Virus record (IMG/VR): IMGVR_UViG_2778261688_000005
Coordinates: 1-10,981 of that record
Source: a virus
Taxonomy: Duplodnaviria; Heunggongvirae; Uroviricota; Caudoviricetes
Reading direction: 5' to 3' (one strand)
DNA: 10,981 nt
Shown: positions 2,191 to 10,981 of the stretch, piece by piece
Position numbering within the stretch: position 1 is the stretch's first letter
Layout of the letters: every line of letters starts with the position of its first letter
The notes under the pieces: generated by a model
The model's database searches: none
Seen by the model: the letters and a program-made list of their open reading frames with translations, nothing else
What the model was told of the DNA's origin: nothing
Made by a program: the position numbers and the translations under genes

Positions 2191-2883
2191 ATGTTATATG
2201 CATTTAAGCTGGGCAGAAAACTGCGCGGCGAGGAACCTTATTGCCCTGAAAAGGGTGGGAAAGGTGGCAGTTCTGATAAAAGCGCAAAGTATGCAGCAGA
2301 AGCTCAGAAGTATGCCGCAGACCTGCAAAATCAGCAGTGGCAGACGATCATGAAAAACCTTGCTCCGTTCACGCCGCTTGCGGAGCAGTATGTTAACCAG
2401 CTTCAGAACCTTTCCAGTTTAGAAGGACAGGGTCAGGCACTTAATCAGTATTACAACTCTCAGCAGTATAAAGACCTTGCAGGCCAGGCTCGTTACCAGA
2501 GTCTTGCTGCTGCGGAGGCTACGGGAGGACTTGGTTCGACAGCCACAAGCAATCAACTTGCTACGATCGCGCCGACTCTCGGTCAGTCTTGGTTATCAAA
2601 CCAGATGAGCAATTACAACAATCTGGCAAACGTTGGGCTTGGTGCTCTGCAAGGTCAGGCAAACGCCGGGCAGACGTACGCCAACAACATGAGCAGCATT
2701 GCACAGCAAAGCGCAGCTCTTGCCGCTGCTAATGCCAACAAACCATCAAGTCTTCAGACAGCAATTAGTGGCGGAACGTCTGGTGCGATTGCCGGTGCAG
2801 GTCTTGCCAGCCTTTTGGGAACATCAACACCTTGGGGCGCTGGCATTGGTGCTGGTATCGGATTGCTTGGCTCGTTGTTTTAA
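2191..2883 (+). CDS. Ejection (internal virion) protein, P22 gp7-like (230 aa)
   Basis: GGGAG is 6 nt upstream of the ATG. The size is close to P22 gp7 (about 229 aa). The C-terminus is Gly/Ala-rich and hydrophobic (GAIAGAGLASLLG...GAGIGAGIGLLGSLF), consistent with a membrane-inserting segment. Position is second in the 14-7-20-16 order. Confidence 0.75.
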   Translation: MLYAFKLGRKLRGEEPYCPEKGGKGGSSDKSAKYAAEAQKYAADLQNQQWQTIMKNLAPFTPLAEQYVNQLQNLSSLEGQGQALNQYYNSQQYKDLAGQARYQSLAAAEATGGLGSTATSNQLATIAPTLGQSWLSNQMSNYNNLANVGLGALQGQANAGQTYANNMSSIAQQSAALAAANANKPSSLQTAISGGTSGAIAGAGLASLLGTSTPWGAGIGAGIGLLGSLF

Positions 2884-2892
2884 GGGGTAATC

Positions 2893-4188
2893 ATGGCTAC
2901 TTGGCAAGGATCAAATGGCGGATTGTTAGCTGGTATCGGCGGCGTCAACTCAAACGCTCCGAGCGTAAATGACATCGGCAATACGCTTCAGCTTATCAGG
3001 CAGAACAATGATATTGAGCGTTCAGGCGCTAACAATGTTGGGCTGACTGCTTTGCAAGGCCTTTCAGGTATTGCGGGGGTGTTTCAGCAGGAAAAGCAGG
3101 CTCAGCGGCAGAAAGAATTTCAGCAGGCATACGCTAATGCTTATGCGTCTGGTGATCGCGGTGCTTTGCGTCAGTTGGCTACTCAATATCCAGACCAGAT
3201 TGAATCCGTTCGTAAAGGCATGGGATTCATTGATGAAGATCAGCGTAATTCTATCGGCACCTTAGCGGCTGGCGCACGCCTTGCGTCATCGTCTCCAGAA
3301 GCAATGCAATCATGGCTGCAAAACAACGCCAAGGAACTGACTCGCGTCGGTGTTGACCCTAATAACGTTGCTCAGATGTATCAGCAGAACCCTTCAGGAT
3401 TTGGTGAGTTTGTTGATCACCTTGGAATGGCTGCTCTTGGTCCGATTGATTACTTCAATGTTCAGGACAAGATGGCTGGTCGTGAAATTGACCGAGGCAG
3501 GCTGGCAGAGACAATCCGCAGCAATCAGGCTGGAGAAGCACTAACAGCGCGTGGTCAGGACATCCAGATACGTGGACAGAACATCAGCGCACAGAATGCT
3601 GCTCTTTCCCGCGAAATACAAAGAGCAGAATTACAAGAAAAGGCTCTGGACAGACAGATAGCCAGAGAAAGCAATCAGTTAAAGCTTGAAGAGCTAAAAC
3701 AGAAACAGGCAGATGTTCGGCAAAAGGCTGACATAGCCCGCGCTGACAGGCAGGCCGCCGCTCAGGGTGCAGTTGATACGTTCAGCACAGCACTTGATTC
3801 TCTCAACGAGATAGAGCAAAGCCCCGGCCTTTCAAAAGCAGTAGGAATTCGCTCAGCGTTTCCAACAGTTCCTGGCTCTGATGCGGCTAACTTTGAAGCA
3901 AGGCTCGACACCTTTAAAGCTCAAACTTTCCTTCCTATGGTGCAGTCCCTTAAGGGTATGGGGGCTCTTTCAGATGCTGAGGGTAAAAAATTATCCGATG
4001 CGGTTGGTGCCCTAAGCCCCAAAATGAGCGAAAAGGCTTTTCGTGACTCTATCGGAAAGATTAGAAATCAGCTTGAAAGCAAGTTGAGCACTGTTAAAAA
4101 ACAGTTTGATTATCAGGATCCAGTACAGAATACGCCAGGACAACAATCTCCTGCTGGCAGTAACTTTTCTTCACTATGGGGTGATTAA
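2893..4188 (+). CDS. Ejection protein, P22 gp20-like (431 aa)
   Basis: AAGGGG ribosome-binding site upstream. Contains a long charged coiled-coil-like segment (REIQRAELQEKALDRQIARESNQLKLEELKQKQADVRQKADIARADRQ). Third in the syntenic cassette; its stop overlaps the next start (TAATG at 4186-4190). Confidence 0.75.
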   Translation: MATWQGSNGGLLAGIGGVNSNAPSVNDIGNTLQLIRQNNDIERSGANNVGLTALQGLSGIAGVFQQEKQAQRQKEFQQAYANAYASGDRGALRQLATQYPDQIESVRKGMGFIDEDQRNSIGTLAAGARLASSSPEAMQSWLQNNAKELTRVGVDPNNVAQMYQQNPSGFGEFVDHLGMAALGPIDYFNVQDKMAGREIDRGRLAETIRSNQAGEALTARGQDIQIRGQNISAQNAALSREIQRAELQEKALDRQIARESNQLKLEELKQKQADVRQKADIARADRQAAAQGAVDTFSTALDSLNEIEQSPGLSKAVGIRSAFPTVPGSDAANFEARLDTFKAQTFLPMVQSLKGMGALSDAEGKKLSDAVGALSPKMSEKAFRDSIGKIRNQLESKLSTVKKQFDYQDPVQNTPGQQSPAGSNFSSLWGD

Positions 4189-6185
4189 TGGCTAAAGCAT
4201 GGAAAGATGTTATCGCCTCTCCACAGTATCAGGCGTTAGCACCAGAACAAAAAGCGCAGGCTCAGGAGCAATACTTCAATGAAGTCGTGGCCCCGCAAGC
4301 CGGAGAAAATGCAGAGCAGGCTAAGCAAGCTTTCTATGCAGCCTATCCATTGCCATCTGTGCAGCCAGTGGAGACACAGCAACCAGTAGCACAGCAACAA
4401 CCACAGCAAAGTGGATTTATGTCTGATCTTGGTGAAGCAGTGAAAGAGACTGGTCGCGGACTGGTGCAGGCTGGCGTGAACGTGGCAAACATACCTGCAT
4501 CAGTTGCCGATGCTGTAACAAGCGCGGCGGCTTGGGCTGGCGGTAAACTCGGCATTGGCGATGGTACATATCAACCAGCGCCACGAGTAACAACGCAGGG
4601 ATTAGAGCAGGACTTTGGCCTTCGGCAAGGTGCGCTGACTCCACAAACGACAGAGGGAAGGGTATTTGCTGAAGCATTGCCTTACCTCACTCCTGCTGGC
4701 GTTGAGAGAGCGGCGGTACAGGCACCAACACTTGCTGGTCGAATTGCTCATGGGGCAACTCGCCTTCTCGCAGAAAACGCAGTTGGATCACTTGCTGCAA
4801 ACAGTATGAAAGATGATGCGGAAGCACTCGCTACCGATTTAGGTGTTGGCGTTCTGGCAGGCGGCGCTATTAACGCTGCTGGACGTGGATTAGGTGCTGC
4901 TTATCGTGGCGTCCGCGGTGCTATTGCGCCAGAAGCGCAGCAAGCTATCAGATTTGCAGAGCGTGAAGGAGTTCCTCTGCACACCACAGACCTGTTACAA
5001 CCCACTTCCCGCGTCGGAAAAATGGCGCAGACTACAGCAGAAAATATCCCTCTGGCTGGCACAAGCGGAATGAGAGCAACGCAACAGGAAGCGAGAAGCC
5101 AGTTGGTGCAGAGATTTGCCGATAAATTCGGTGAGTATGATCCAGCGGTTGTTATTGACAGCCTTAAAGCGAAAACATCAGGAATTCGTCGTGCCGCCGG
5201 TAATCGACTGGAGCAGGTTCAGAATGCTATGGCTGGAGTAAACATTCAGCCTGCGCGAGCAATTCAGCAGATTGATACAGAAATATCTAACCTGCAGAAG
5301 CTTGGTAAGGTCGCCGATAACGAGACTATTTCAAAACTTCAGTCCTATCGTGATGAGCTTGTTCGCAATGCTGGTCCGGATGGTCCGGTAAATCTGGATT
5401 TGAAGCAATTAAGCGATCTGCGCAGCCAGTTCAGAATGGACGTGAAGGGGGAACGACCAGTGTTACCAAACCGTTCCGATGCTGCCATTCAGCGCGTTTA
5501 CAAGGCGATGACAGACGATATCAATGGTGCCATTGGTCAGAATCTTGGCAACGATACTCTCCGTAAATATCAGCAGGCCAATGCCGTCTACGCTGACGAA
5601 GCGGCGAAACTAAAGAATACCAGGCTGAAGAATGTTCTCATGAAAGGCGACCTGACGCCGGAAGTTGTCAACAACATGCTATTCAGCAAGAACAAATCGG
5701 AAATTAAGACGCTGTATAACTCAGTTGGTCGTGTTGGCAGGGCGCAAATGCGCAATGGCATCATTGGAAAGGCGATGGAGAAATCTGGCGGATCCCCTGA
5801 CCAGTTCCTTCGGCAGCTTAACATCCTGCAAAACCAGACTGGCATCACATTTAAAGGTCAGGAAGCCGCTTATCTGAAAGGATTGAAAAACTACCTGCAA
5901 TCCACGCAGCAGGCTGCAAAAGCAGCAGTAACAACACCAACAGGGCAGCAAACCATCCCGTTCATTATCGGGTATGGGACGGCAATGAACCCGGCGACAA
6001 CTGGCGCAGCGGTAAGCTACGGACTTCTTACTCGCGCCTATGAGAGCGAGCCATTCAGAAATGCAATGCTCCGAATGGCAAATACCCCACGCGGATCGAC
6101 AGCGTTTGAGAAAGCCATGCAGCAAGCGCAAAAAGCGATTAATGCACTGACGCAGGGTGCGAAGTCTGATTCGTTGTCAGAATAG
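4188..6185 (+). CDS. Ejection protein, P22 gp16-like (665 aa)
   Basis: Large Ala/Gln-rich protein, last gene of the cassette and translationally coupled to the gp20-like gene. The size is in the range of P22 gp16 (about 609 aa). Confidence 0.75.
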   Translation: MAKAWKDVIASPQYQALAPEQKAQAQEQYFNEVVAPQAGENAEQAKQAFYAAYPLPSVQPVETQQPVAQQQPQQSGFMSDLGEAVKETGRGLVQAGVNVANIPASVADAVTSAAAWAGGKLGIGDGTYQPAPRVTTQGLEQDFGLRQGALTPQTTEGRVFAEALPYLTPAGVERAAVQAPTLAGRIAHGATRLLAENAVGSLAANSMKDDAEALATDLGVGVLAGGAINAAGRGLGAAYRGVRGAIAPEAQQAIRFAEREGVPLHTTDLLQPTSRVGKMAQTTAENIPLAGTSGMRATQQEARSQLVQRFADKFGEYDPAVVIDSLKAKTSGIRRAAGNRLEQVQNAMAGVNIQPARAIQQIDTEISNLQKLGKVADNETISKLQSYRDELVRNAGPDGPVNLDLKQLSDLRSQFRMDVKGERPVLPNRSDAAIQRVYKAMTDDINGAIGQNLGNDTLRKYQQANAVYADEAAKLKNTRLKNVLMKGDLTPEVVNNMLFSKNKSEIKTLYNSVGRVGRAQMRNGIIGKAMEKSGGSPDQFLRQLNILQNQTGITFKGQEAAYLKGLKNYLQSTQQAAKAAVTTPTGQQTIPFIIGYGTAMNPATTGAAVSYGLLTRAYESEPFRNAMLRMANTPRGSTAFEKAMQQAQKAINALTQGAKSDSLSE

Positions 6186-6226
6186 CCTTTCAAACACCAG
6201 GAACGTGCAAAAACCAAATATGTAGA

Positions 6227-6254
6227 ATGCAATATTCATCATATCTCTTTGCAT
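6227..6254. promoter_or_regulatory. Second copy of the dyad motif (ATGCAA-N16-TTGCAT with internal CATCATATC) in the gp16 / mnt intergenic region
   Basis: ATGCAA 6227-6232, CATCATATC 6237-6245, TTGCAT 6249-6254. Same sequence elements as the 6609-6637 site, arranged differently. Confidence 0.25.
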
Positions 6255-6274
6255 AAATCCTCCGTAATGGATGG

Positions 6275-6535
6275 TTAGTTGCTGTCTTTTTTATATAGCT
6301 CCTTGAGCGTATCAAAGACAATTTTCTTAACCATATCAGATTGTTGTTCTGCCATACGCTCTGCATCGTCAATGTAAACTGATGCAGAGCTTTGTTTATC
6401 CAATGATTCTTCAATCGCTGCAATTATCTCTGAGTTCAGCGACCTGTTATTCATCTTCGCACGCTGCTTAATTTTCGCGTGGAGTTCATGCGGAAGTCTC
6501 AAGTGAAACTGCGCCTCGTCGTATTTGCTGTACAT
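6275..6535 (-). CDS. mnt: Mnt-like ribbon-helix-helix repressor (Arc/Mnt family); the ORF extends to an upstream ATG at 6568, but the internal ATG at 6535 aligns with the P22 Mnt start
   Basis: FHLRLPHELHAKIKQRAKMNNRSLNSEIIAAIEESL matches the RHH region of P22 Mnt as I recall it (HFNFRMPMEVREKLKFRAEANGRSMNSELLQIVQDAL). The C-terminus DDAERMAEQQSDMVKKIVFDTLKELYKK matches the Mnt tetramerisation helix (NDAERLADEQSELVKKMVFDTLKDLYKK). Confidence 0.8.
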   Translation of the reverse strand: MYSKYDEAQFHLRLPHELHAKIKQRAKMNNRSLNSEIIAAIEESLDKQSSASVYIDDAERMAEQQSDMVKKIVFDTLKELYKKDSN

Positions 6536-6608
6536 CCTTGATGCCTCACCAGTTGGGTGGAATGGCATCGTAACCTACTGGATAAATACTCAATAGTACC
6601 ATTTCGGT

Positions 6609-6637
6609 ATGCAATCACATCATGGTTGCATCATATC
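6609..6637. promoter_or_regulatory. Dyad element ATGCAA-N11-TTGCAT followed by CATCATATC in the mnt / tailspike divergent intergenic region; candidate operator and promoter region
   Basis: ATGCAA at 6609-6614 and its reverse complement TTGCAT at 6626-6631; the 9-mer CATCATATC at 6629-6637 is repeated on the other side of mnt. It lies between two divergently transcribed genes. Confidence 0.3.
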
Positions 6638-6656
6638 ATTCGTTTGGAGCAATGAA

Positions 6657-8639
6657 ATGTCAGATATCACCGCAAATGTTGTGGTAAGCATGCCTTCGCA
6701 ACTCTTCACTATGGCTCGTTCTTTTAAAGCCGTAGCCAATGGCAAAATTTATATCGGAAAAATTGACACTGACCCGGTAAATCCAGAAAACCAGATCCAG
6801 GTTTATGTGGAGAACGAAGATGGCTCTCATGTTCCTGTTTCGCAACCAATCATCATTAACGCTGCTGGATATCCGGTATATAACGGACAGATTGCCAAGT
6901 TCGTAACTGTGCAAGGCCATTCTATGGCTGTTTATGATGCGTACGGTGCGCAGCAGTTCTATTTTCCTAATGTGCTGAAGTATGACCCGGATCAGCTTGA
7001 GCAGAGGCTCTCTTCTTTTGATGGGCAAAAATATATAGGAGTATGTCCAGACATTGTCACATTACGAACAATAGAGCCAACGGTTGATGGCCAAATGATA
7101 ACTCTTAAGCAACACACAGATGGAACAGGGATTGGTGGTGGTAGATTTCGCGCTGTTTTACATGGTGAATCTTACTCTGATAACAACGGGACTATAGTTA
7201 AAACTGTTGGCGGCTCTGCTTGGTTGCGCATTAATGCTGATGTAGTAAACCCATTGATGTTTGGAGCTTATGGAGACGGTATTACTGATGACACGGAAGC
7301 TGTTAATAATGCAATTGCTTCATCAAGCAATATTGATGGCGTTGCAAACACATACCTTGTATCAGGTAATGGCATACAAATTCAGCATGGTAAAACATTT
7401 AAAAATGCAACAATAACTGAGTCGAAAGCAAGCAATGCCGTTATGCTGAGATTTACAGGTAGTAATTCGGCAATAGAAAACATTATTTTCGATGGTTCCA
7501 ATGGATTAACAAGCAGAGGGGTAATTGTCAACGCTGGTCTTTCTGATATACACATCTACAAATGCAGAGCGACTGACCTTAAAAAACCATTTGTAGGAGT
7601 GTCTGGAGACTATGATAATAATCTTTTCTGTGTTCGAGTAACAATTGAAAAATGTTTCGCCAATAACTGCGGAAATGATGGTACAAATTACGACCGTTCA
7701 ACAATAATATTTGACGGGGTTTCAGGTTGCACTGTAAAAGATTGCTATTTCAGCTCATGCAATTGGGGAATTACTTTCAGACAGCCGTATGACTACCCAG
7801 AGTTAACAAAACCTTATGCGTACTACAACAGAGTTGATGGTTGCTACTTATCCGGGAAGACCGGTTACCCATATAATCAGGGTATCAGCGCGCAAAGCCA
7901 AAAACATTTCTCAGCATCAGGAAACACGATAGAAGGATTTTTAGGTAACGCTATCGATAACCAAAGATGTGACTTTAGTCGCATCGAAAACAATAAACTT
8001 TCATCCGGAGATGATGGTATCTTTTTTGGTGATTTAAACTGCAAGGGCCACGTTGTGACTGGTAACGTGATTACTGGATGTGCAAGGGGTATTAGGGTTT
8101 ACGGTGCCGTTGGAGATTGGGCTAATCAGGCCATGACGGATATCACCATAACCGGTAACATAATAACGGACTCCACCGTAGTAGGCATCTATGTGTACCG
8201 CACGGAGCCGACTAACTCCTTTGCTGGTTTTAACATCACAGAAAATATCATAGACAACTCAGGCACAAGGTCGCTAACCGGCAACACACAAGGCATTCTC
8301 GTAACAGGGTTGTCAGGTGGCGTCGTGTCGAATAACGTTATACGCAATACACGCATGGAAGGGTTAAGGTTCGTTAACTCTGTCGGGGTTGTGGCTGTGG
8401 GTAATTCTGTGACTGGATTCGATTACTCTGCTACGGCGCAAGCTGGTATTTACATCGATGTAACTTCAAGAGGTATACAACTAAGAAATTCAACTGTTTC
8501 ATCTTCAGGTGGTTCAGGTGCAGCAGTTAGAGAAGCGGGCGTTAATAACACGGTCACCGGAACCAGATGGAATGGAGTCACTACTGGGGTTAACTCAACC
8601 GGCACAGGTGCTGTATTGGACGATAACGTTGGATTTTAA
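6657..8639 (+). CDS. Tailspike protein: P22-type head-binding N-terminal domain fused to a right-handed beta-helix (pectate-lyase-like) receptor-binding domain, a putative polysaccharide depolymerase
   Basis: From the ATG at 6657 (GGAG 7 nt upstream) the protein starts [59 protein letters not shown]...VLKYDPDQ, which matches the P22 gp9 N-terminus ([43 protein letters not shown]...). After about residue 115 it diverges into a sequence with a [21 protein letters not shown] motif and repetitive G/N/T/V-rich beta-helix-like segments. The ORF track starts at 6609, but the homology-supported start is 6657. Confidence 0.85.
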
Positions 8640-8641
8640 AA

Positions 8642-8666
8642 AAAGAGCGCCTTGTTGGCGCTCTTT
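8642..8666. terminator. Hairpin terminator between the convergent tailspike and acyltransferase genes
   Basis: AAAGAGCGCC-TTGTT-GGCGCTCTTT gives a 10-bp stem with a 5-nt loop. On the minus strand it is followed by a run of seven T (complement of AAAAAAA at 8638-8644), a strong intrinsic terminator for the acyltransferase transcript. On the plus strand only TTT follows. Confidence 0.6.
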
Positions 8667-8668
8667 AA

Positions 8669-9691
8669 TCACGTTATTATTTTCAATTTATTCTTTATCA
8701 TTATTGGTAAAATTGGTACTATAATTCCGAGAAAAACATACAATATAAATGAGAATTGATTGTATACATTATTTAGCTTCCCATGCTCATGGTTTTCAAA
8801 TCCAAAAAATAGAAATAATAAATTTAACATTGCAAAAACAGATAGATGCCATGACATTATTGTTTTCGAATTGTCTCCTATCATTTTCAATAATCTATTA
8901 TATTTAGATGATAGGATATTGGATATTATTAACACTACAAAGATACATATCAATGATGCTATTGATGTCATAATAAAACCAGATGGGTATGTTGACCATG
9001 CCATTGCACTTTGTTTTATCAATCCAAATGATATCATTGTTCCTGTTATAACTATCAAAATCATTGCTGATATTGGGTTATTTACTGTTAGTGATTGTTT
9101 TTTTAGTGAAAAGCCAAGTAGCATAAACATAGAACCATAAAGTGACTGTGCGGAAACATTATAAATTTGATATCCAGTCTCCTTAAATTTTACTGCGCAT
9201 ATGTTAAGCGCCACAAAGCCAATAATTATTGCAATTATAATTAACGTAATATTTTGGTGTTTAAACTCAGTAGTTACTGAGATTATAATCCTTGATATTA
9301 TTGATGATAAGTAATAAGCAAGCAAAAACCAACAAACAAGAAATAATGGGTTGTTGTGAAAGTTCTTTTCTAGTGGGTTGGTAGTGAACGGTTCGCCAAA
9401 ATACAGTCCTGTAAATTTATTTAGTGTTATTGCTAAAACTCCAGTTAGAATGTACGTAAAAACAATGTATGGGATTATTTTTTTTGATAGTTTTCTCAAT
9501 GCGTTGAACGTAACTATCTCATTTTTTAATGTCAATCCACCAACAAAAAAGAAAAAAGGCATGTGATATAAATACGGATGCATTACATTAAAGAACCCAC
9601 TTGTGTAATGACCTATCACAACAACTATTATGCCGATTGCCTTCATGTAACTTATGGACAAGCTTTGTTCATTGGTAATTTGGTGCATTTT
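8669..9691 (-). CDS. oac: Acyltransferase-3 family integral membrane protein, Oac-like O-antigen acetyltransferase (lysogenic conversion); the ORF extends to an ATG at 9733, but 9691 is the preferred start
   Basis: Polytopic hydrophobic protein of about 340 aa with a conserved His early in the first membrane segment (MKAIGIIVVVIGHY) and an FFFFVGG motif. It sits between tailspike and integrase, as oac does in Sf6 and the gtr genes do in P22. The gene is markedly AT-rich relative to its flanks. The second ATG is preceded by AAGAGA; the first has no Shine-Dalgarno sequence. Confidence 0.75.
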   Translation of the reverse strand, partial: KMHQITNEQSLSISYMKAIGIIVVVIGHYTSGFFNVMHPYLYHMPFFFFVGGLTLKNEIVTFNALRKLSKKIIPYIVFTYILTGVLAITLNKFTGLYFGEPFTTNPLEKNFHNNPLFLVCWFLLAYYLSSIISRIIISVTTEFKHQNITLIIIAIIIGFVALNICAVKFKETGYQIYNVSAQSLYGSMFMLLGFSLKKQSLTVNNPISAMILIVITGTMISFGLIKQSAMAWSTYPSGFIMTSIASLICIFVVLIISNILSSKYNRLLKMIGDNSKTIMSWHLSVFAMLNLLFLFFGFENHEHGKLNNVYNQFSFILYVFLGIIVPILPIMIKNKLKIIT

Positions 9692-9733
9692 TATCTCTTC
9701 ATTTCTATGTGGCAATATTTTCGCAAAAAACAT

Positions 9734-9823
9734 ACGAATGTTAATTTATTAATATACCAATAACATTTGAGTTAGTATGCAATTTTAAAATGTTTGTTCT
9801 ATGTGTGTGCTTTGGATGATATA
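9734..9823 (-). promoter_or_regulatory. AT-rich intergenic region upstream of the acyltransferase gene; likely promoter and possible attP location by synteny
   Basis: The minus strand contains TTGCAT (9777-9782) and an extended -10-like TGGTATATT (about 9751-9759), but the spacing between them is about 20 nt, which is too long. No tRNA-like core is visible. Confidence 0.25.
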
Positions 9824-10981
9824 TCACTCCACCTTTTCATCAAGCCAGTCCGCCCACCACTGCATCATTTCTCTGCGCTTATCTAGATATTGAGCATGGT
9901 TGTAAATCCCGCGCACAGATCCGCCGTTGGCATGTGCCAGTTGCACTTCAATAGCGTCAGCAGGCCATTCGTGCTCGTTCATAATCGTGCTGAATTCATG
10001 CCTGAATCCGTGACCGCTTTCCAGCCCCTCATAGCCGATTTGTTTGATCACAAGTAGCACCGCGTTCTCGCAGATTGGCTTCTTCTTATCGTTACGCCCT
10101 GCAAAAACAAACTCTGATACTGGTTTGGTGATGGAGCTTAACGTAGTGAGAAGTTCAACCACCTGGTCTGACATCGGGACCACATGAATTTTGCGTCCCT
10201 TCATCACATTGGCGTCGATGGTGATAATCCTGTTTTCAAAATCGACGTTCTTCCATAGCATGGAACGAAGCTCTTTTGTTCTGAGGGCTGTGTAGCGTAA
10301 AACTTTGGTCGCAATGAGCGATACGATACTTCCTGAAAATGTTGCCAGTGCTTTGTTAAATGCCGGGATCTGGTCTGCAGGAAGAAACGGGAAGTTCTTC
10401 TTGCGGTATCCTTTCATGGCGTCAGCAAGGTCAGGTGCCGGGTTATATTTAGCCCTGCCGGTGACAATAGCGTAACGGAAAACCTCGCCGCATCTTCTGC
10501 GGGCTTTATTTGCTCGCTCCATTGCGCCGCGATCTTCAAATCTGCGGATTACTTCCAGCAGTTGCATCGGCTCAATATCCTGAATTTCAAGGCCGCCGAT
10601 GATGGGTAAAATGTCGTCATCAAACATTTTGGCAAGTTCAGTTGCATAGCCTACTGACCAGACTTGCTTCTTGTGCTCGTACCATTCCTTGTAAATCGCA
10701 CTAAAGGAATTGTTGTTAGACGAAGCCTTTTTCGCCTTTACCGGATCGATGCCAACCGAGATGTCTTTCCTCGCAGTCCATGCTTTATCCCTTGCCTCTT
10801 GCAAAGTCATAAGCGGATATTTTCCGACGGTCAGGATTTTCTCCTTACCGTCAATCTTGTAGCGAAGCTGCCATACCTTTTTCCCGGATACAGGGACATA
10901 AAGGTACAGGCCATTACCATCGAGAAGGCGGTATGGTTTTTCTTTCGGCTTTGCTGCTTCAATCTGCTTAACGGTGAGCAT
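9824..10981 (-). CDS. int: Tyrosine site-specific integrase, P4-type (arm-binding N-terminal domain plus catalytic domain)
   Basis: 385-aa ORF. The N-terminus LTVKQIEAAKPKEKPYRLLDGNGLYLYVPVSGKKVWQLRYKIDGKE is the typical P4-family arm-binding domain. The C-terminus carries the catalytic residues in HGFRHEFST...LAHANGGSVRGIYNHAQY (R...HxxR...Y). The start ATG is the last codon of the window, so the true N-terminus could lie a few codons further upstream. Confidence 0.9.
   Translation of the reverse strand: MLTVKQIEAAKPKEKPYRLLDGNGLYLYVPVSGKKVWQLRYKIDGKEKILTVGKYPLMTLQEARDKAWTARKDISVGIDPVKAKKASSNNNSFSAIYKEWYEHKKQVWSVGYATELAKMFDDDILPIIGGLEIQDIEPMQLLEVIRRFEDRGAMERANKARRRCGEVFRYAIVTGRAKYNPAPDLADAMKGYRKKNFPFLPADQIPAFNKALATFSGSIVSLIATKVLRYTALRTKELRSMLWKNVDFENRIITIDANVMKGRKIHVVPMSDQVVELLTTLSSITKPVSEFVFAGRNDKKKPICENAVLLVIKQIGYEGLESGHGFRHEFSTIMNEHEWPADAIEVQLAHANGGSVRGIYNHAQYLDKRREMMQWWADWLDEKVE

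What the first reader, a model, noticed from the sequence alone, without database searches (positions are those of the whole stretch)
8638..8670. Shared hairpin terminator at the convergence of tailspike and acyltransferase genes
A single 10-bp GC-rich stem (AAAGAGCGCC / GGCGCTCTTT) sits between two convergent stop codons 30 nt apart. It has a seven-U tail only for the minus-strand transcript, so it should terminate acyltransferase transcription efficiently and the late tailspike transcript less so. This asymmetric insulator keeps late-operon read-through from producing antisense RNA to the conversion gene only in part.
Basis: seen in the sequence. Interest (0 to 1): 0.2.

Follow-up and report, generated by a model that had tools for sequence, protein, structure and literature searches.

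The report
Terminator hairpin after prophage acyltransferase gene
The hairpin is an ordinary one-directional transcription stop signal that belongs to a horizontally acquired O-antigen acyltransferase gene in a P22-like prophage, the same layout already annotated in phages P22 and Sf6.

Summary
A perfect inverted repeat, AAAGAGCGCC/TTGTT/GGCGCTCTTT (8642-8666), fills the 29-nt gap between the tailspike stop (TAA 8637-8639, +) and the Acyl_transf_3 gene stop (TGA 8671-8669, -). It is the only perfect hairpin of 10 bp or more in the window.

On the minus strand it reads as a canonical intrinsic terminator: a 7-bp G+C core, a 5-nt loop and U7. My terminator score is +34.5, above lambda tR2 (25.0) and the oop terminator (29.6). 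On the plus strand the tail is UUUAAUCAC and the score is borderline (+1.2).

Relatives of the acyltransferase in E. coli, Enterobacter, Hafnia and one other chromosome keep the 7-bp core, with three compensatory pair changes. They keep only the T-run on the acyltransferase strand. Hafnia has the hairpin without any tailspike gene. The hairpin is therefore the acyltransferase cassette's own terminator, not a selected "shared" one.

P22 (gtrC terminator) and Sf6 (oac terminator) carry annotated equivalents. In 59 P22-like tailspike-downstream regions the polarity of such hairpins varies.

Two caveats apply. Late transcription is Q/gp23-antiterminated, so the "partial insulator" idea is largely moot. 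Both stop codons also lie 2-5 nt from the stem. No 3'-end data exist. Ordinary; low interest.

The parts
6657..8639 (+). Tailspike gene (660 aa). It has a P22-type head-binding domain followed by a beta-helix receptor-binding domain. The stop codon is TAA at 8637-8639. The mechanical ORF starts at 6609, but the true start is probably 6657.
   Evidence: Pfam Head_binding matches residues 17-129 of the 676-aa ORF at profile positions 1-113; Beta_helix and NosD also match. Gene callers give 660 aa in identical loci. The N-terminus reads [11 protein letters not shown].
8645..8663 (-). Core terminator hairpin: GAGCGCC / AACAA / GGCGCUC on the minus-strand RNA, with a 7-bp stem (6 G-C pairs) and a 5-nt loop.
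   Evidence: The hairpin alone scores dG -12.8 kcal/mol. The core is kept in 5 lineages with 100% of 35 cells paired and 3 pairs changed on both sides.
8642..8666 (.). Full perfect inverted repeat, AAAGAGCGCC-TTGTT-GGCGCTCTTT. The three outer A-T pairs are the start of the A/T run and are not conserved as pairs in relatives.
   Evidence: I5. Pairs 8-10 are broken in the E. coli group B and Enterobacter relatives.
8638..8644 (-). U7 tract of the minus-strand terminator (A7 on the plus strand). Its distal two bases are the AA of the tailspike TAA stop codon.
   Evidence: Tail score T = 4.75. The run is T6, T7 or T8 in otherwise identical E. coli prophages and T6-7 in 82-86% relatives.
8664..8678 (+). 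Plus-strand 'tail', TTTAATCACGTTATT. It has only three U's directly after the core and overlaps the acyltransferase stop codon and last codons.
   Evidence: Tail score 2.75 and d = +1.2. It is not T-rich in relatives.
8669..9688 (-). Acyl_transf_3 family membrane acyltransferase, a putative O-antigen O-acetyltransferase and lysogenic-conversion 'moron' gene. It is 339 aa from the ATG at 9688. The mechanical ORF extends to 9733 (354 aa).
   Evidence: Pfam PF01757, E = 1.4e-15. Homologues start at the MHQ position. G+C is 26-32% against 45-50% in the flanks, and the drop begins at the hairpin.
9689..9823 (-). Intergenic region between the integrase and acyltransferase genes that should hold the acyltransferase promoter. 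Candidates are TGgTATATT (extended -10) at 9759-9751 and the scan hits at 9843-9816 and 9744-9717.
   Evidence: Sf6 and P22 carry annotated promoters at the equivalent position. The promoter was not resolved here.
9824..10981 (-). Integrase gene (385 aa), upstream on the same strand. Its transcripts, and read-through from the host flank in the prophage, would meet the same terminator.
   Evidence: Pfam Phage_integrase, Phage_int_M and Arm-DNA-bind_3. It is 96-97% identical to the Sf6, HK620 and CUS-3 int genes. In E. coli the prophage end lies next to tRNA-Arg(CCT) and a gene with the same orientation.

Best explanation
The hairpin is a Rho-independent (intrinsic) terminator for minus-strand transcription. 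It belongs to the acyltransferase 'moron' cassette (promoter, AT-rich acyltransferase gene, terminator) that sits between the integrase and tailspike genes of a P22-like prophage.

Proposed mechanism in a lysogen. RNA polymerase transcribes the acyltransferase gene, or reads in from int or the host flank. It transcribes GAGCGCC-AACAA-GGCGCUC and then U7. The G+C-rich hairpin forms in the exit channel while the weak rU:dA hybrid is in the active site, and the transcript is released at about 8638-8642. [quoted passage not shown]

On the plus strand the same hairpin is followed by UUUAAUCAC. It is at best a weak terminator or pause for non-antiterminated polymerases. It is probably irrelevant for Q/gp23-modified late transcription, which would read through into the antisense strand of the acyltransferase and int genes.

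Shown here: the sequence anatomy, thermodynamic stability, rarity by chance, terminator scores with calibration, and conservation with compensatory changes. Inferred: that termination actually occurs, its efficiency, and the biological role.
For: Anatomy: a 7-bp core with 6 G-C pairs, a 5-nt loop and U7, placed 5 nt after the stop codon.

Stability: -16.7 to -17.8 kcal/mol, z = -5.5 to -6.7.

Rarity: it is the only perfect hairpin of 10 bp or more in the window, and only 4.5% of shuffles have one.

Score: d = +34.5 on the minus strand, the highest in the window on either strand. Every other ungapped hairpin scores below 0 except the same hairpin on the plus strand, at +1.2.

Calibration: the same script gives lambda tR2 25.0 and the lambda oop terminator 29.6.

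Conservation: identical-gene E. coli prophages keep the hairpin. Relatives at 86% (E. coli) and 82% (Enterobacter) keep GAGCGCC-N5-GGCGCTC plus T6-7, although the C-terminus of the protein and the plus-strand 'tail' differ.

Compensatory change: the Hafnia homologue (60% identity, no tailspike gene) has GAGCACC-TTT-GGTGCTC-T5, a compensatory G-C to A-T change. L203 (51% identity) has AGGCGCC-CATAG-GGTGCCT, with two more compensatory pairs and one G.U. Counted formally, 35 of 35 cells pair and 3 pairs change on both sides; 7 of 500 shuffles reach this, and slid registers give 23-66% pairing.

Local identity peaks at 0.85-0.88 over the 3' arm and T-run, against 0.62-0.73 in the flanks.

The G+C content drops from about 46% to about 26% at the hairpin, which marks the cassette boundary.

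Precedent: P22 has an annotated minus-strand terminator for gtrC at 18214-18245 between gene 9 and gtrC. Sf6 has an annotated 'putative terminator for oac gene transcription' between the tailspike and oac genes. The moron concept holds that each such gene has its own promoter and terminator (PMC3594210).
Against: There is no experimental 3'-end mapping for this or any homologous locus.

The stem begins only 2-5 nt after the acyltransferase stop codon, and in the 82-86% relatives the stop codon lies in the loop. In vivo, lambda tR2 placed a few bp after a gene was almost completely repressed by the terminating ribosome (PMC4824070). Real efficiency may therefore be well below what the score suggests.

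The covariation rests on 5 lineages. The Hafnia and L203 hairpins were picked out by their structure, so the alignment is fitted to it.

The terminator score is my own implementation from memory of the d'Aubenton-Carafa formula, with ViennaRNA energies and ungapped stems only.

The core GAGCGCC-N5-GGCGCTC-T6 also occurs in 7 unrelated IMG/VR contigs. Sequence identity of the core alone is therefore weak evidence of common descent.
Confidence: 0.8

Rival explanations
1. It is a truly bidirectional (shared) terminator. The hairpin stops both the acyltransferase transcript and the tailspike/late transcript to a useful extent.
For: The plus-strand score is marginally positive, at +1.2, and the hairpin is slightly more stable on that strand, at -17.8 kcal/mol. 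P22 has a symmetric A5/T5 hairpin at the same position that scores +22.9 and +10.9. Several P22-like loci (L033, L080, L031) score positive on both strands. Hairpins between convergent genes can act as pause sites where head-on collisions complete termination without a good U-tract (bioRxiv 10.1101/2022.10.23.513370).
Against: Only 3 U's follow the core on the plus strand. In the 82-86% relatives the corresponding tail is AGCAAUUAAC or UACAACUAAC, scoring -50 and -31, so plus-strand termination is not conserved. Late transcription in P22-like phages is antiterminated by gp23/Q. The tailspike stop codon lies 2-5 nt before the stem, so the ribosome would occlude it.
Confidence: 0.15
2. On the plus strand the hairpin works mainly as a 3'-end stabiliser. 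Read-through late transcripts are trimmed back by 3'-5' exonucleases to the stem, which protects the tailspike mRNA. This is compatible with the main explanation for the minus strand.
For: The hairpin is stable (-17.8 kcal/mol) and lies directly after the last late gene. No other plus-strand terminator-like hairpin scores above 0 between 8670 and the end of the window, so long antisense tails would otherwise be produced. That stable 3' stem-loops block exonucleases is established general knowledge.
Against: Nothing here tests RNA decay. The hairpin is retained in Hafnia and L203, where no tailspike gene converges on it.
Confidence: 0.15
3. It is a recombination or module-boundary sequence: a short conserved joint at which tailspike and conversion-gene modules are swapped between phages, with no role in RNA.
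For: It lies exactly at a sharp G+C boundary. The core is identical across modules whose flanks are 62-73% identical. P22-like genomes are highly mosaic around the tailspike gene.
Against: In every phage relative found, the 3' end of the tailspike receptor-binding domain and the acyltransferase gene stay together across the hairpin (L015-L026, L113, L201), so no exchange point is seen at it. Compensatory stem changes point to a structural constraint, not a sequence constraint.
Confidence: 0.04
4. It is a chance palindrome without function.
For: 4.5% of shuffled windows contain a perfect hairpin of 10 bp or more somewhere. The outer three pairs are simply an A-run facing a T-run.
Against: It sits exactly in the only 29-nt convergent gap. 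It carries a U7 tract. It is conserved with compensatory changes across genera. It matches annotated terminators at the same position in P22 and Sf6.
Confidence: 0.02

Closest known systems
Phage P22 terminator between gene 9 (tailspike) and gtrC (NC_002371 18214-18245, annotated on the gtrC strand)
   Same: The position and logic are the same. A single hairpin lies in the short gap where the last late gene (tailspike) converges on an O-antigen conversion operon that has its own promoter. It is annotated as the conversion gene's terminator.
   Different: The sequences are unrelated. P22's hairpin (AAAAATGGGTGTAAACACCCATTTTTATTTT) is symmetric and scores positive on both strands, +22.9 and +10.9. 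The window's hairpin is one-sided, +1.2 and +34.5. The conversion genes differ: gtrABC in P22, an Acyl_transf_3 gene here.
Phage Sf6 'putative terminator for oac gene transcription' (NC_005344 15599-15614)
   Same: The gene order is the same: tailspike, then hairpin, then Acyl_transf_3-type O-acetylase and int on the opposite strand. The int gene is 96% identical. The oac gene with its promoter and terminator behaves as a transferable unit (PMC3630932).
   Different: The hairpin sequence is different (AGGGGCCATATGGCCCCT). Its T-run is on the tailspike strand, scoring +33.5 there and -22.5 on the oac strand. That is the opposite polarity to the window. The acyltransferases are not close relatives: Sf6 DNA matches the window only outside 7000-9830, and no phage record encodes a similar protein.
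Canonical E. coli / lambda intrinsic terminators (lambda tR2, lambda oop terminator)
   Same: A G+C-rich stem of 7-8 bp, a short loop, and a run of 5-7 U immediately after the stem. Scores are comparable or lower: 25.0 and 29.6 against 34.5.
   Different: The lambda terminators have been characterised experimentally. This one has not. This one also lies unusually close to two stop codons.
Bidirectional terminators between convergent E. coli genes (Ju et al. 2019, as described in bioRxiv 10.1101/2022.10.23.513370)
   Same: A single hairpin lies in a short gap between convergent genes and is transcribed from both sides.
   Different: The hairpins in that class are described as not resembling strong intrinsic terminators in either direction and as relying on polymerase collisions. 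Here one direction is a textbook intrinsic terminator, and the two transcription units are mostly active at different times (lysogeny versus late lytic growth).

Membership tests
Rho-independent (intrinsic) terminator, minus strand | G+C-rich stem of about 5-14 bp with a loop of 3-8 nt | tested here: met
   The core is 7 bp with 6 G-C pairs, extendable to 10 bp, with a 5-nt loop. The hairpin dG is -12.8 to -16.7 kcal/mol.
Rho-independent (intrinsic) terminator, minus strand | U-rich tract immediately 3' of the stem | tested here: met
   U7 directly follows the core. The tail score is 4.75 and d = +34.5, above lambda tR2 and the oop terminator scored with the same script.
Rho-independent (intrinsic) terminator, minus strand | Located downstream of the last gene of a transcription unit | tested here: met
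   The core starts 5 nt after the acyltransferase stop codon, TGA at 8671-8669.
Rho-independent (intrinsic) terminator, minus strand | Stem structure maintained in evolution | tested here: met
   In 5 lineages, 35 of 35 cells pair and 3 pairs change on both sides; 7 of 500 shuffles do as well. The sample is small and the alignment is fitted to the structure.
Rho-independent (intrinsic) terminator, minus strand | Transcript 3' ends map to the U-tract, and termination occurs with pure RNA polymerase in vitro | not testable with these tools
   No transcript data were available. This needs Term-seq, 3'-RACE or in vitro transcription.
Bidirectional intrinsic terminator | U-tract after the hairpin on both strands (an A-tract upstream and a T-tract downstream) | tested here: not met
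   The plus-strand tail is UUUAAUCACGUUAUU, with tail score 2.75 and d = +1.2, which is borderline. In relatives the plus-strand tail is not U-rich, scoring -50 and -31.
Phage 'moron' (independently transcribed insert with its own promoter and terminator and deviant G+C content) | G+C content differs from that of neighbouring phage genes | tested here: met
   G+C is 26-32% across 8650-9850, against 45-50% on either side.
Phage 'moron' (independently transcribed insert with its own promoter and terminator and deviant G+C content) | Own terminator | tested here: met
   This is the hairpin itself. It stays with the gene in a non-phage context in Hafnia.
Phage 'moron' (independently transcribed insert with its own promoter and terminator and deviant G+C content) | Own promoter, active in the repressed prophage | tested here: inconclusive
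   Only consensus-like candidates were found in 9689-9843. Promoter-like hits in the whole window are not above the shuffle expectation, 15 against 17.3.
Rfam RF02054 STnc420 (Salmonella sRNA) | Covariance-model score at or above the gathering threshold (70 bits) | tested here: not met
   The score is 25.9 bits on the plus strand and 16.2 bits on the minus strand. The match rests on the generic AGCGCC...GGCGCU terminator hairpin.

The most novel reading that the evidence does not exclude
The terminator may be conditional on translation. Its stem starts 2-5 nt after the stop codon, and in the 82-86% and 51% relatives the stop codon lies inside the loop. A ribosome closely coupled to RNA polymerase would then mask the 5' arm and allow read-through. 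The level of antisense transcription into the tailspike and late genes, or of convergent collision with late transcription, would then depend on how well the AT-rich membrane-protein gene is being translated. This would make the hairpin a small regulatory switch between lysogenic-conversion expression and late-gene expression, not a passive stop.
Probability: 0.07. Interest if true: 0.4.

Novelty: new member of a known kind. Interest (0 to 1): 0.1.

Why it matters
It matters little beyond annotation. The result marks the 3' end of a lysogenic-conversion transcription unit in a P22-like E. coli prophage. That prophage's tailspike receptor-binding domain and acyltransferase are absent from sequenced phage records. 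The result also shows that the terminator travels with the acyltransferase gene as a cassette. In addition, the hairpin at the tailspike/conversion-gene junction of P22-like phages is a recurrent feature whose polarity varies: tailspike strand only in Sf6, both strands in P22, conversion-gene strand only here. This could interest people mapping phage transcription units or sourcing compact one-directional terminators. No open question becomes testable through it.

Tried and rejected
(1) The built-in terminator scan did not list the hairpin. This is an artefact of taking the maximal 10-bp stem, which leaves only 4 T's. It is not evidence against the hairpin.

(2) An exact search for the 25-nt hairpin in GTDB species representatives found nothing. 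A profile search for the acyltransferase there found only relatives of 33% identity or less, which are useless for hairpin comparison.

(3) DNA searches of the tailspike 3' end, hairpin and acyltransferase gene found no match in 50,697 phage records (distant mode) or in complete RefSeq E. coli genomes. A protein search with the acyltransferase against phages found no match. The tailspike receptor-binding domain reaches at most 35% identity to Enterobacter phage tail fibres.

(4) Rfam gave only sub-threshold hits, STnc420 at 25.9 of 70 bits. No paper in the library mentions STnc420. Rejected as a family member.

(5) The degenerate pattern GAGCGCC-N5-GGCGCTC-T6 matched 8 IMG/VR contigs, but only one (L113) is homologous. 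The others show that this is a generic terminator stem.

(6) A MAFFT alignment of 53-nt flanks mis-registered the Hafnia arm. It was replaced by arm-anchored counting and a trimmed alignment.

(7) The longer-range pairing predicted around the hairpin (AACGU.../...ACGUU) is not conserved in relatives and was not pursued.

(8) The Mnt operator and promoter region upstream of the tailspike gene was compared by eye with P22. No obvious match was seen, and it was dropped.
Full report
Context. The window is the right-hand end of a P22-like (Lederbergvirus-type) prophage. On the plus strand it carries ejection-protein genes gp7, gp20 and gp16 (2191-6185). An mnt-like repressor gene follows on the minus strand (6275-6568). 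The tailspike gene has a P22 head-binding domain and a beta-helix domain. On the minus strand there are an Acyl_transf_3 membrane acyltransferase gene and a tyrosine integrase gene (Pfam; ORFs). The integrase gene and the tailspike N-terminal part are 94-97% identical to Sf6, HK620, CUS-3 and other E. coli/Shigella P22-like phages. The tailspike receptor-binding part, the hairpin and the acyltransferase gene match no phage record and no complete RefSeq E. coli genome. They do occur in about two dozen draft E. coli assemblies and metagenome contigs. There the prophage lies next to tRNA-Arg(CCT).

Observation. The sequence at 8637-8671 is TAA-AA-AAAGAGCGCC-TTGTT-GGCGCTCTTT-AA-TCA. The tailspike stop is TAA at 8637-8639. 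The acyltransferase stop is TGA at 8671-8669 on the minus strand. The gap between them is 29 nt. The inverted repeat (8642-8651 / 8657-8666) is 10 nt per arm and perfect, with a 5-nt loop. The isolated 33-mer folds at -17.8 kcal/mol as plus-strand RNA and -16.7 kcal/mol as minus-strand RNA, with z = -6.7 and -5.5 and 0 of 200 shuffles as good. It is the only perfect hairpin of 10 bp or more with a 3-8 nt loop in the window, and only 4.5% of dinucleotide shuffles contain one anywhere. The element is best described as a 7-bp G+C core (8645-8663) followed on the minus strand by U7 (complement of 8644-8638). The last two of those bases are the AA of the tailspike stop codon.

Terminator strength on each strand. 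The built-in consensus scan did not report the site, because it takes the maximal stem and then sees only four T's. I therefore scored every ungapped hairpin in the window with a d'Aubenton-Carafa-type discriminant. The formula was recalled from memory, energies came from ViennaRNA, and the tail was weighted over 15 nt. On the minus strand the core plus U7 scores +34.5, the best value in the window on either strand. On the plus strand the same core followed by UUUAAUCACGUUAUU scores +1.2. Every other hairpin in the window is below 0. As calibration, the same script run on 18.5 kb of phage lambda gives 25.0 for the hairpin at 40597-40618 and 29.6 for the one at 38625-38606 (minus strand). From my own knowledge these are tR2 and the oop terminator. 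The minus-strand signal is thus as good as classic functional terminators, and the plus-strand signal is marginal.

Comparative evidence. E. coli prophages with the identical acyltransferase keep the hairpin exactly, with the T-run varying between 6, 7 and 8 (L008, L007, L011). Two further lineages have acyltransferases 86% identical (E. coli prophages L015-L020, IMG/VR L113, and L201) and 82% identical (a degraded prophage in Enterobacter, L021-L026). Both keep GAGCGCC-N5-GGCGCTC followed by T6-7. Their proteins are six residues longer, so the 5' arm is coding and the stop codon (TAG or TAA) lies in the loop. The sequence that would form a plus-strand tail is AGCAATTAAC or TACAACTAAC. Their scores are +34.3 and +26.3 on the acyltransferase strand, and -50 and -31 on the other.

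A 60%-identical homologue in Hafnia alvei is not in a prophage. It is preceded by a second acyltransferase gene and converges on cas6f. It is followed by TAA-TTAAAAAGAGCACC-TTT-GGTGCTCTTTTT, the same hairpin with a compensatory G-C to A-T change. A 51%-identical chromosomal homologue (L203) has AGGCGCC-CATAG-GGTGCCT, again with the stop codon in the loop, two more compensatory pairs and one G.U. Counted on a trimmed alignment, all 35 cells pair and 3 of 7 pairs change on both sides. 7 of 500 shuffles do as well, and slid registers give 23-66% pairing. This is a small sample fitted to the structure. Even so, together with the local identity peak over the 3' arm and T-run (0.85-0.88 against 0.62-0.73 in the flanks), it indicates selection on the RNA stem and on the minus-strand U-tract only.

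Hence the hairpin is the acyltransferase cassette's own terminator. G+C content falls from about 46% to about 26% exactly at the hairpin and stays at 26-32% to the end of the cassette. This fits the 'moron' definition: its own promoter and terminator and deviant G+C content (PMC3594210).

What is already known. P22 itself carries an annotated minus-strand terminator for gtrC at 18214-18245, between gene 9 (tailspike) and the gtrCBA conversion operon, which has its own promoter. Sf6 carries an annotated 'putative terminator for oac gene transcription' between its tailspike and oac genes, plus an oac promoter. The oac gene with these elements has been cloned as a functional unit (PMC3630932). 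Scored with my script, the P22 hairpin is bidirectional (+22.9 and +10.9). The Sf6 hairpin has its T-run on the tailspike strand (+33.5 and -22.5), despite its annotation.

A survey covered 59 distinct tailspike-downstream regions from IMG/VR P22-like contigs. Many have a hairpin within about 30 nt of the tailspike stop, facing a convergent gene of 300-490 codons. All three polarities occur. Conversion-gene strand only: L056, L089, L060. Both strands: L033, L080, L031. Tailspike strand only: L055, L087. Many others have no good hairpin. More distant acyltransferase relatives show the same variety. L118 and L202 have a different hairpin with T7-8 on the tail-protein strand, and in Salmonella L119 the two genes overlap by 35 nt with no hairpin. 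The window's element is therefore one more instance of a known and variable arrangement.

Mechanism and caveats. The most likely function is intrinsic termination of minus-strand transcripts in the lysogen. These are acyltransferase mRNA and any read-through from int or the host flank. It is the only minus-strand hairpin in the window scoring above 0. It would protect the tailspike gene and the late operon from antisense transcription.

This is weak. Late operons of P22-like and lambdoid phages are transcribed by polymerase modified by gp23/Q at the late promoter, which reads through terminators (P22 annotation; PMC2629481; PMC8022706). PMC8022706 also notes that terminators inside late operons may only stop non-antiterminated, spurious transcription. 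On the plus strand the hairpin may still act as a pause, as a collision site (bioRxiv 10.1101/2022.10.23.513370) or as a 3'-end stabiliser. None of these was tested here.

A second caveat concerns efficiency. Both stop codons lie 2-5 nt from the stem, and in relatives the stop is inside the loop. In vivo, lambda tR2 placed a few bp after a gene was almost fully repressed by the ribosome (PMC4824070). The actual efficiency may therefore be lower than the score implies, or may depend on transcription-translation coupling. That is the only mildly novel possibility left open.

Verdict. The feature is a new member of a well-known kind. Interest is low.

Noticed in passing
L015-L026, L113, L201 (stop at about locus 4036-4038); L203 3560-3562; L118 and L202: In several acyltransferase relatives the stop codon (TAG or TAA) lies in the loop of the terminator hairpin, so the 5' arm of the stem is coding. 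This is seen for two unrelated hairpin sequences: GAGCGCC-ACTAG-GGCGCTC and GCCTCCC-GTAA-GGGAGGC. In the window the protein is 6 residues shorter and stops 5 nt before the core.
   Followed up: partly
window 8638-8644; L008 and L011 at about 4046-4053: The A/T run next to the hairpin is 6, 7 or 8 nt long in E. coli prophages that are otherwise identical here. It lies after both stop codons, so it changes neither protein. It could be real slippage or assembly error.
   Followed up: no
L001 (Sf6) 3231-3246: The Sf6 hairpin annotated as 'putative terminator for oac gene transcription' has its T-run on the tailspike strand (score +33.5) and AAAATAATCA on the oac strand (score -22.5). By sequence it looks like a tailspike/late-strand terminator, not an oac terminator.
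   Followed up: partly
L201 2687-5056; L021-L026 downstream of about 4045; L025 2683-2862: The cassette consists of the tailspike C-terminal receptor-binding part, the hairpin and the acyltransferase gene. It also occurs fused to a 789-aa tail protein without a P22 head-binding domain, next to a Collar-domain protein (L201). It occurs as well as a remnant in a degraded Enterobacter prophage beside holin and lysozyme genes, with a 59-codon tailspike tail left. This is module exchange across phage types.
   Followed up: partly
window 8650-9850: The acyltransferase cassette has 26-32% G+C against 45-50% in the flanking phage genes, with sharp edges at the hairpin and near the int stop codon. This is typical of horizontally acquired O-antigen modification genes.
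   Followed up: yes
window 6609-6657 and 9688-9733: The mechanical ORF starts are probably too far upstream. The tailspike gene most likely starts at 6657 (660 aa, [10 protein letters not shown]...). The acyltransferase gene most likely starts at 9688 (339 aa, MHQ...), judged from Pfam coordinates, gene calls in identical loci and the homologue alignment.
   Followed up: yes
window 6186-6656: The region between gp16 and the tailspike gene (the 'immI/ant moron' position) holds only an mnt-like gene on the minus strand, with no arc or ant. A weak plus-strand hairpin with a T6 run (6270-6286, score -13) lies just after gp16 and overlaps the 3' end of mnt. Any Pant-like promoter at 6569-6656 would point straight into the tailspike gene and give non-antiterminated tailspike transcripts.
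   Followed up: no
window 8614-8673 (+): There is a weak Rfam match to the Salmonella sRNA family STnc420: 25.9 bits against a gathering score of 70. It is driven by a similar AAAAAGCGCC...GGCGCUUUUU terminator hairpin. No paper in the searchable library mentions this sRNA.
   Followed up: partly
L115 1916-4044 and 4080-7044: In Hafnia alvei the 60%-identical acyltransferase gene is the second of two tandem Acyl_transf_3 genes. It converges on a type I-F CRISPR-Cas operon (Csy4/Csy3/Csy2/Csy1). The homologous hairpin there is symmetric (A5/T5) and scores positive on both strands.
   Followed up: no
L119 and L120, 4034-4068: In Salmonella P22-like prophages a 39%-identical acyltransferase gene and a 790-aa tailspike gene overlap convergently by 35 nt. 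No terminator-like hairpin lies between them.
   Followed up: no
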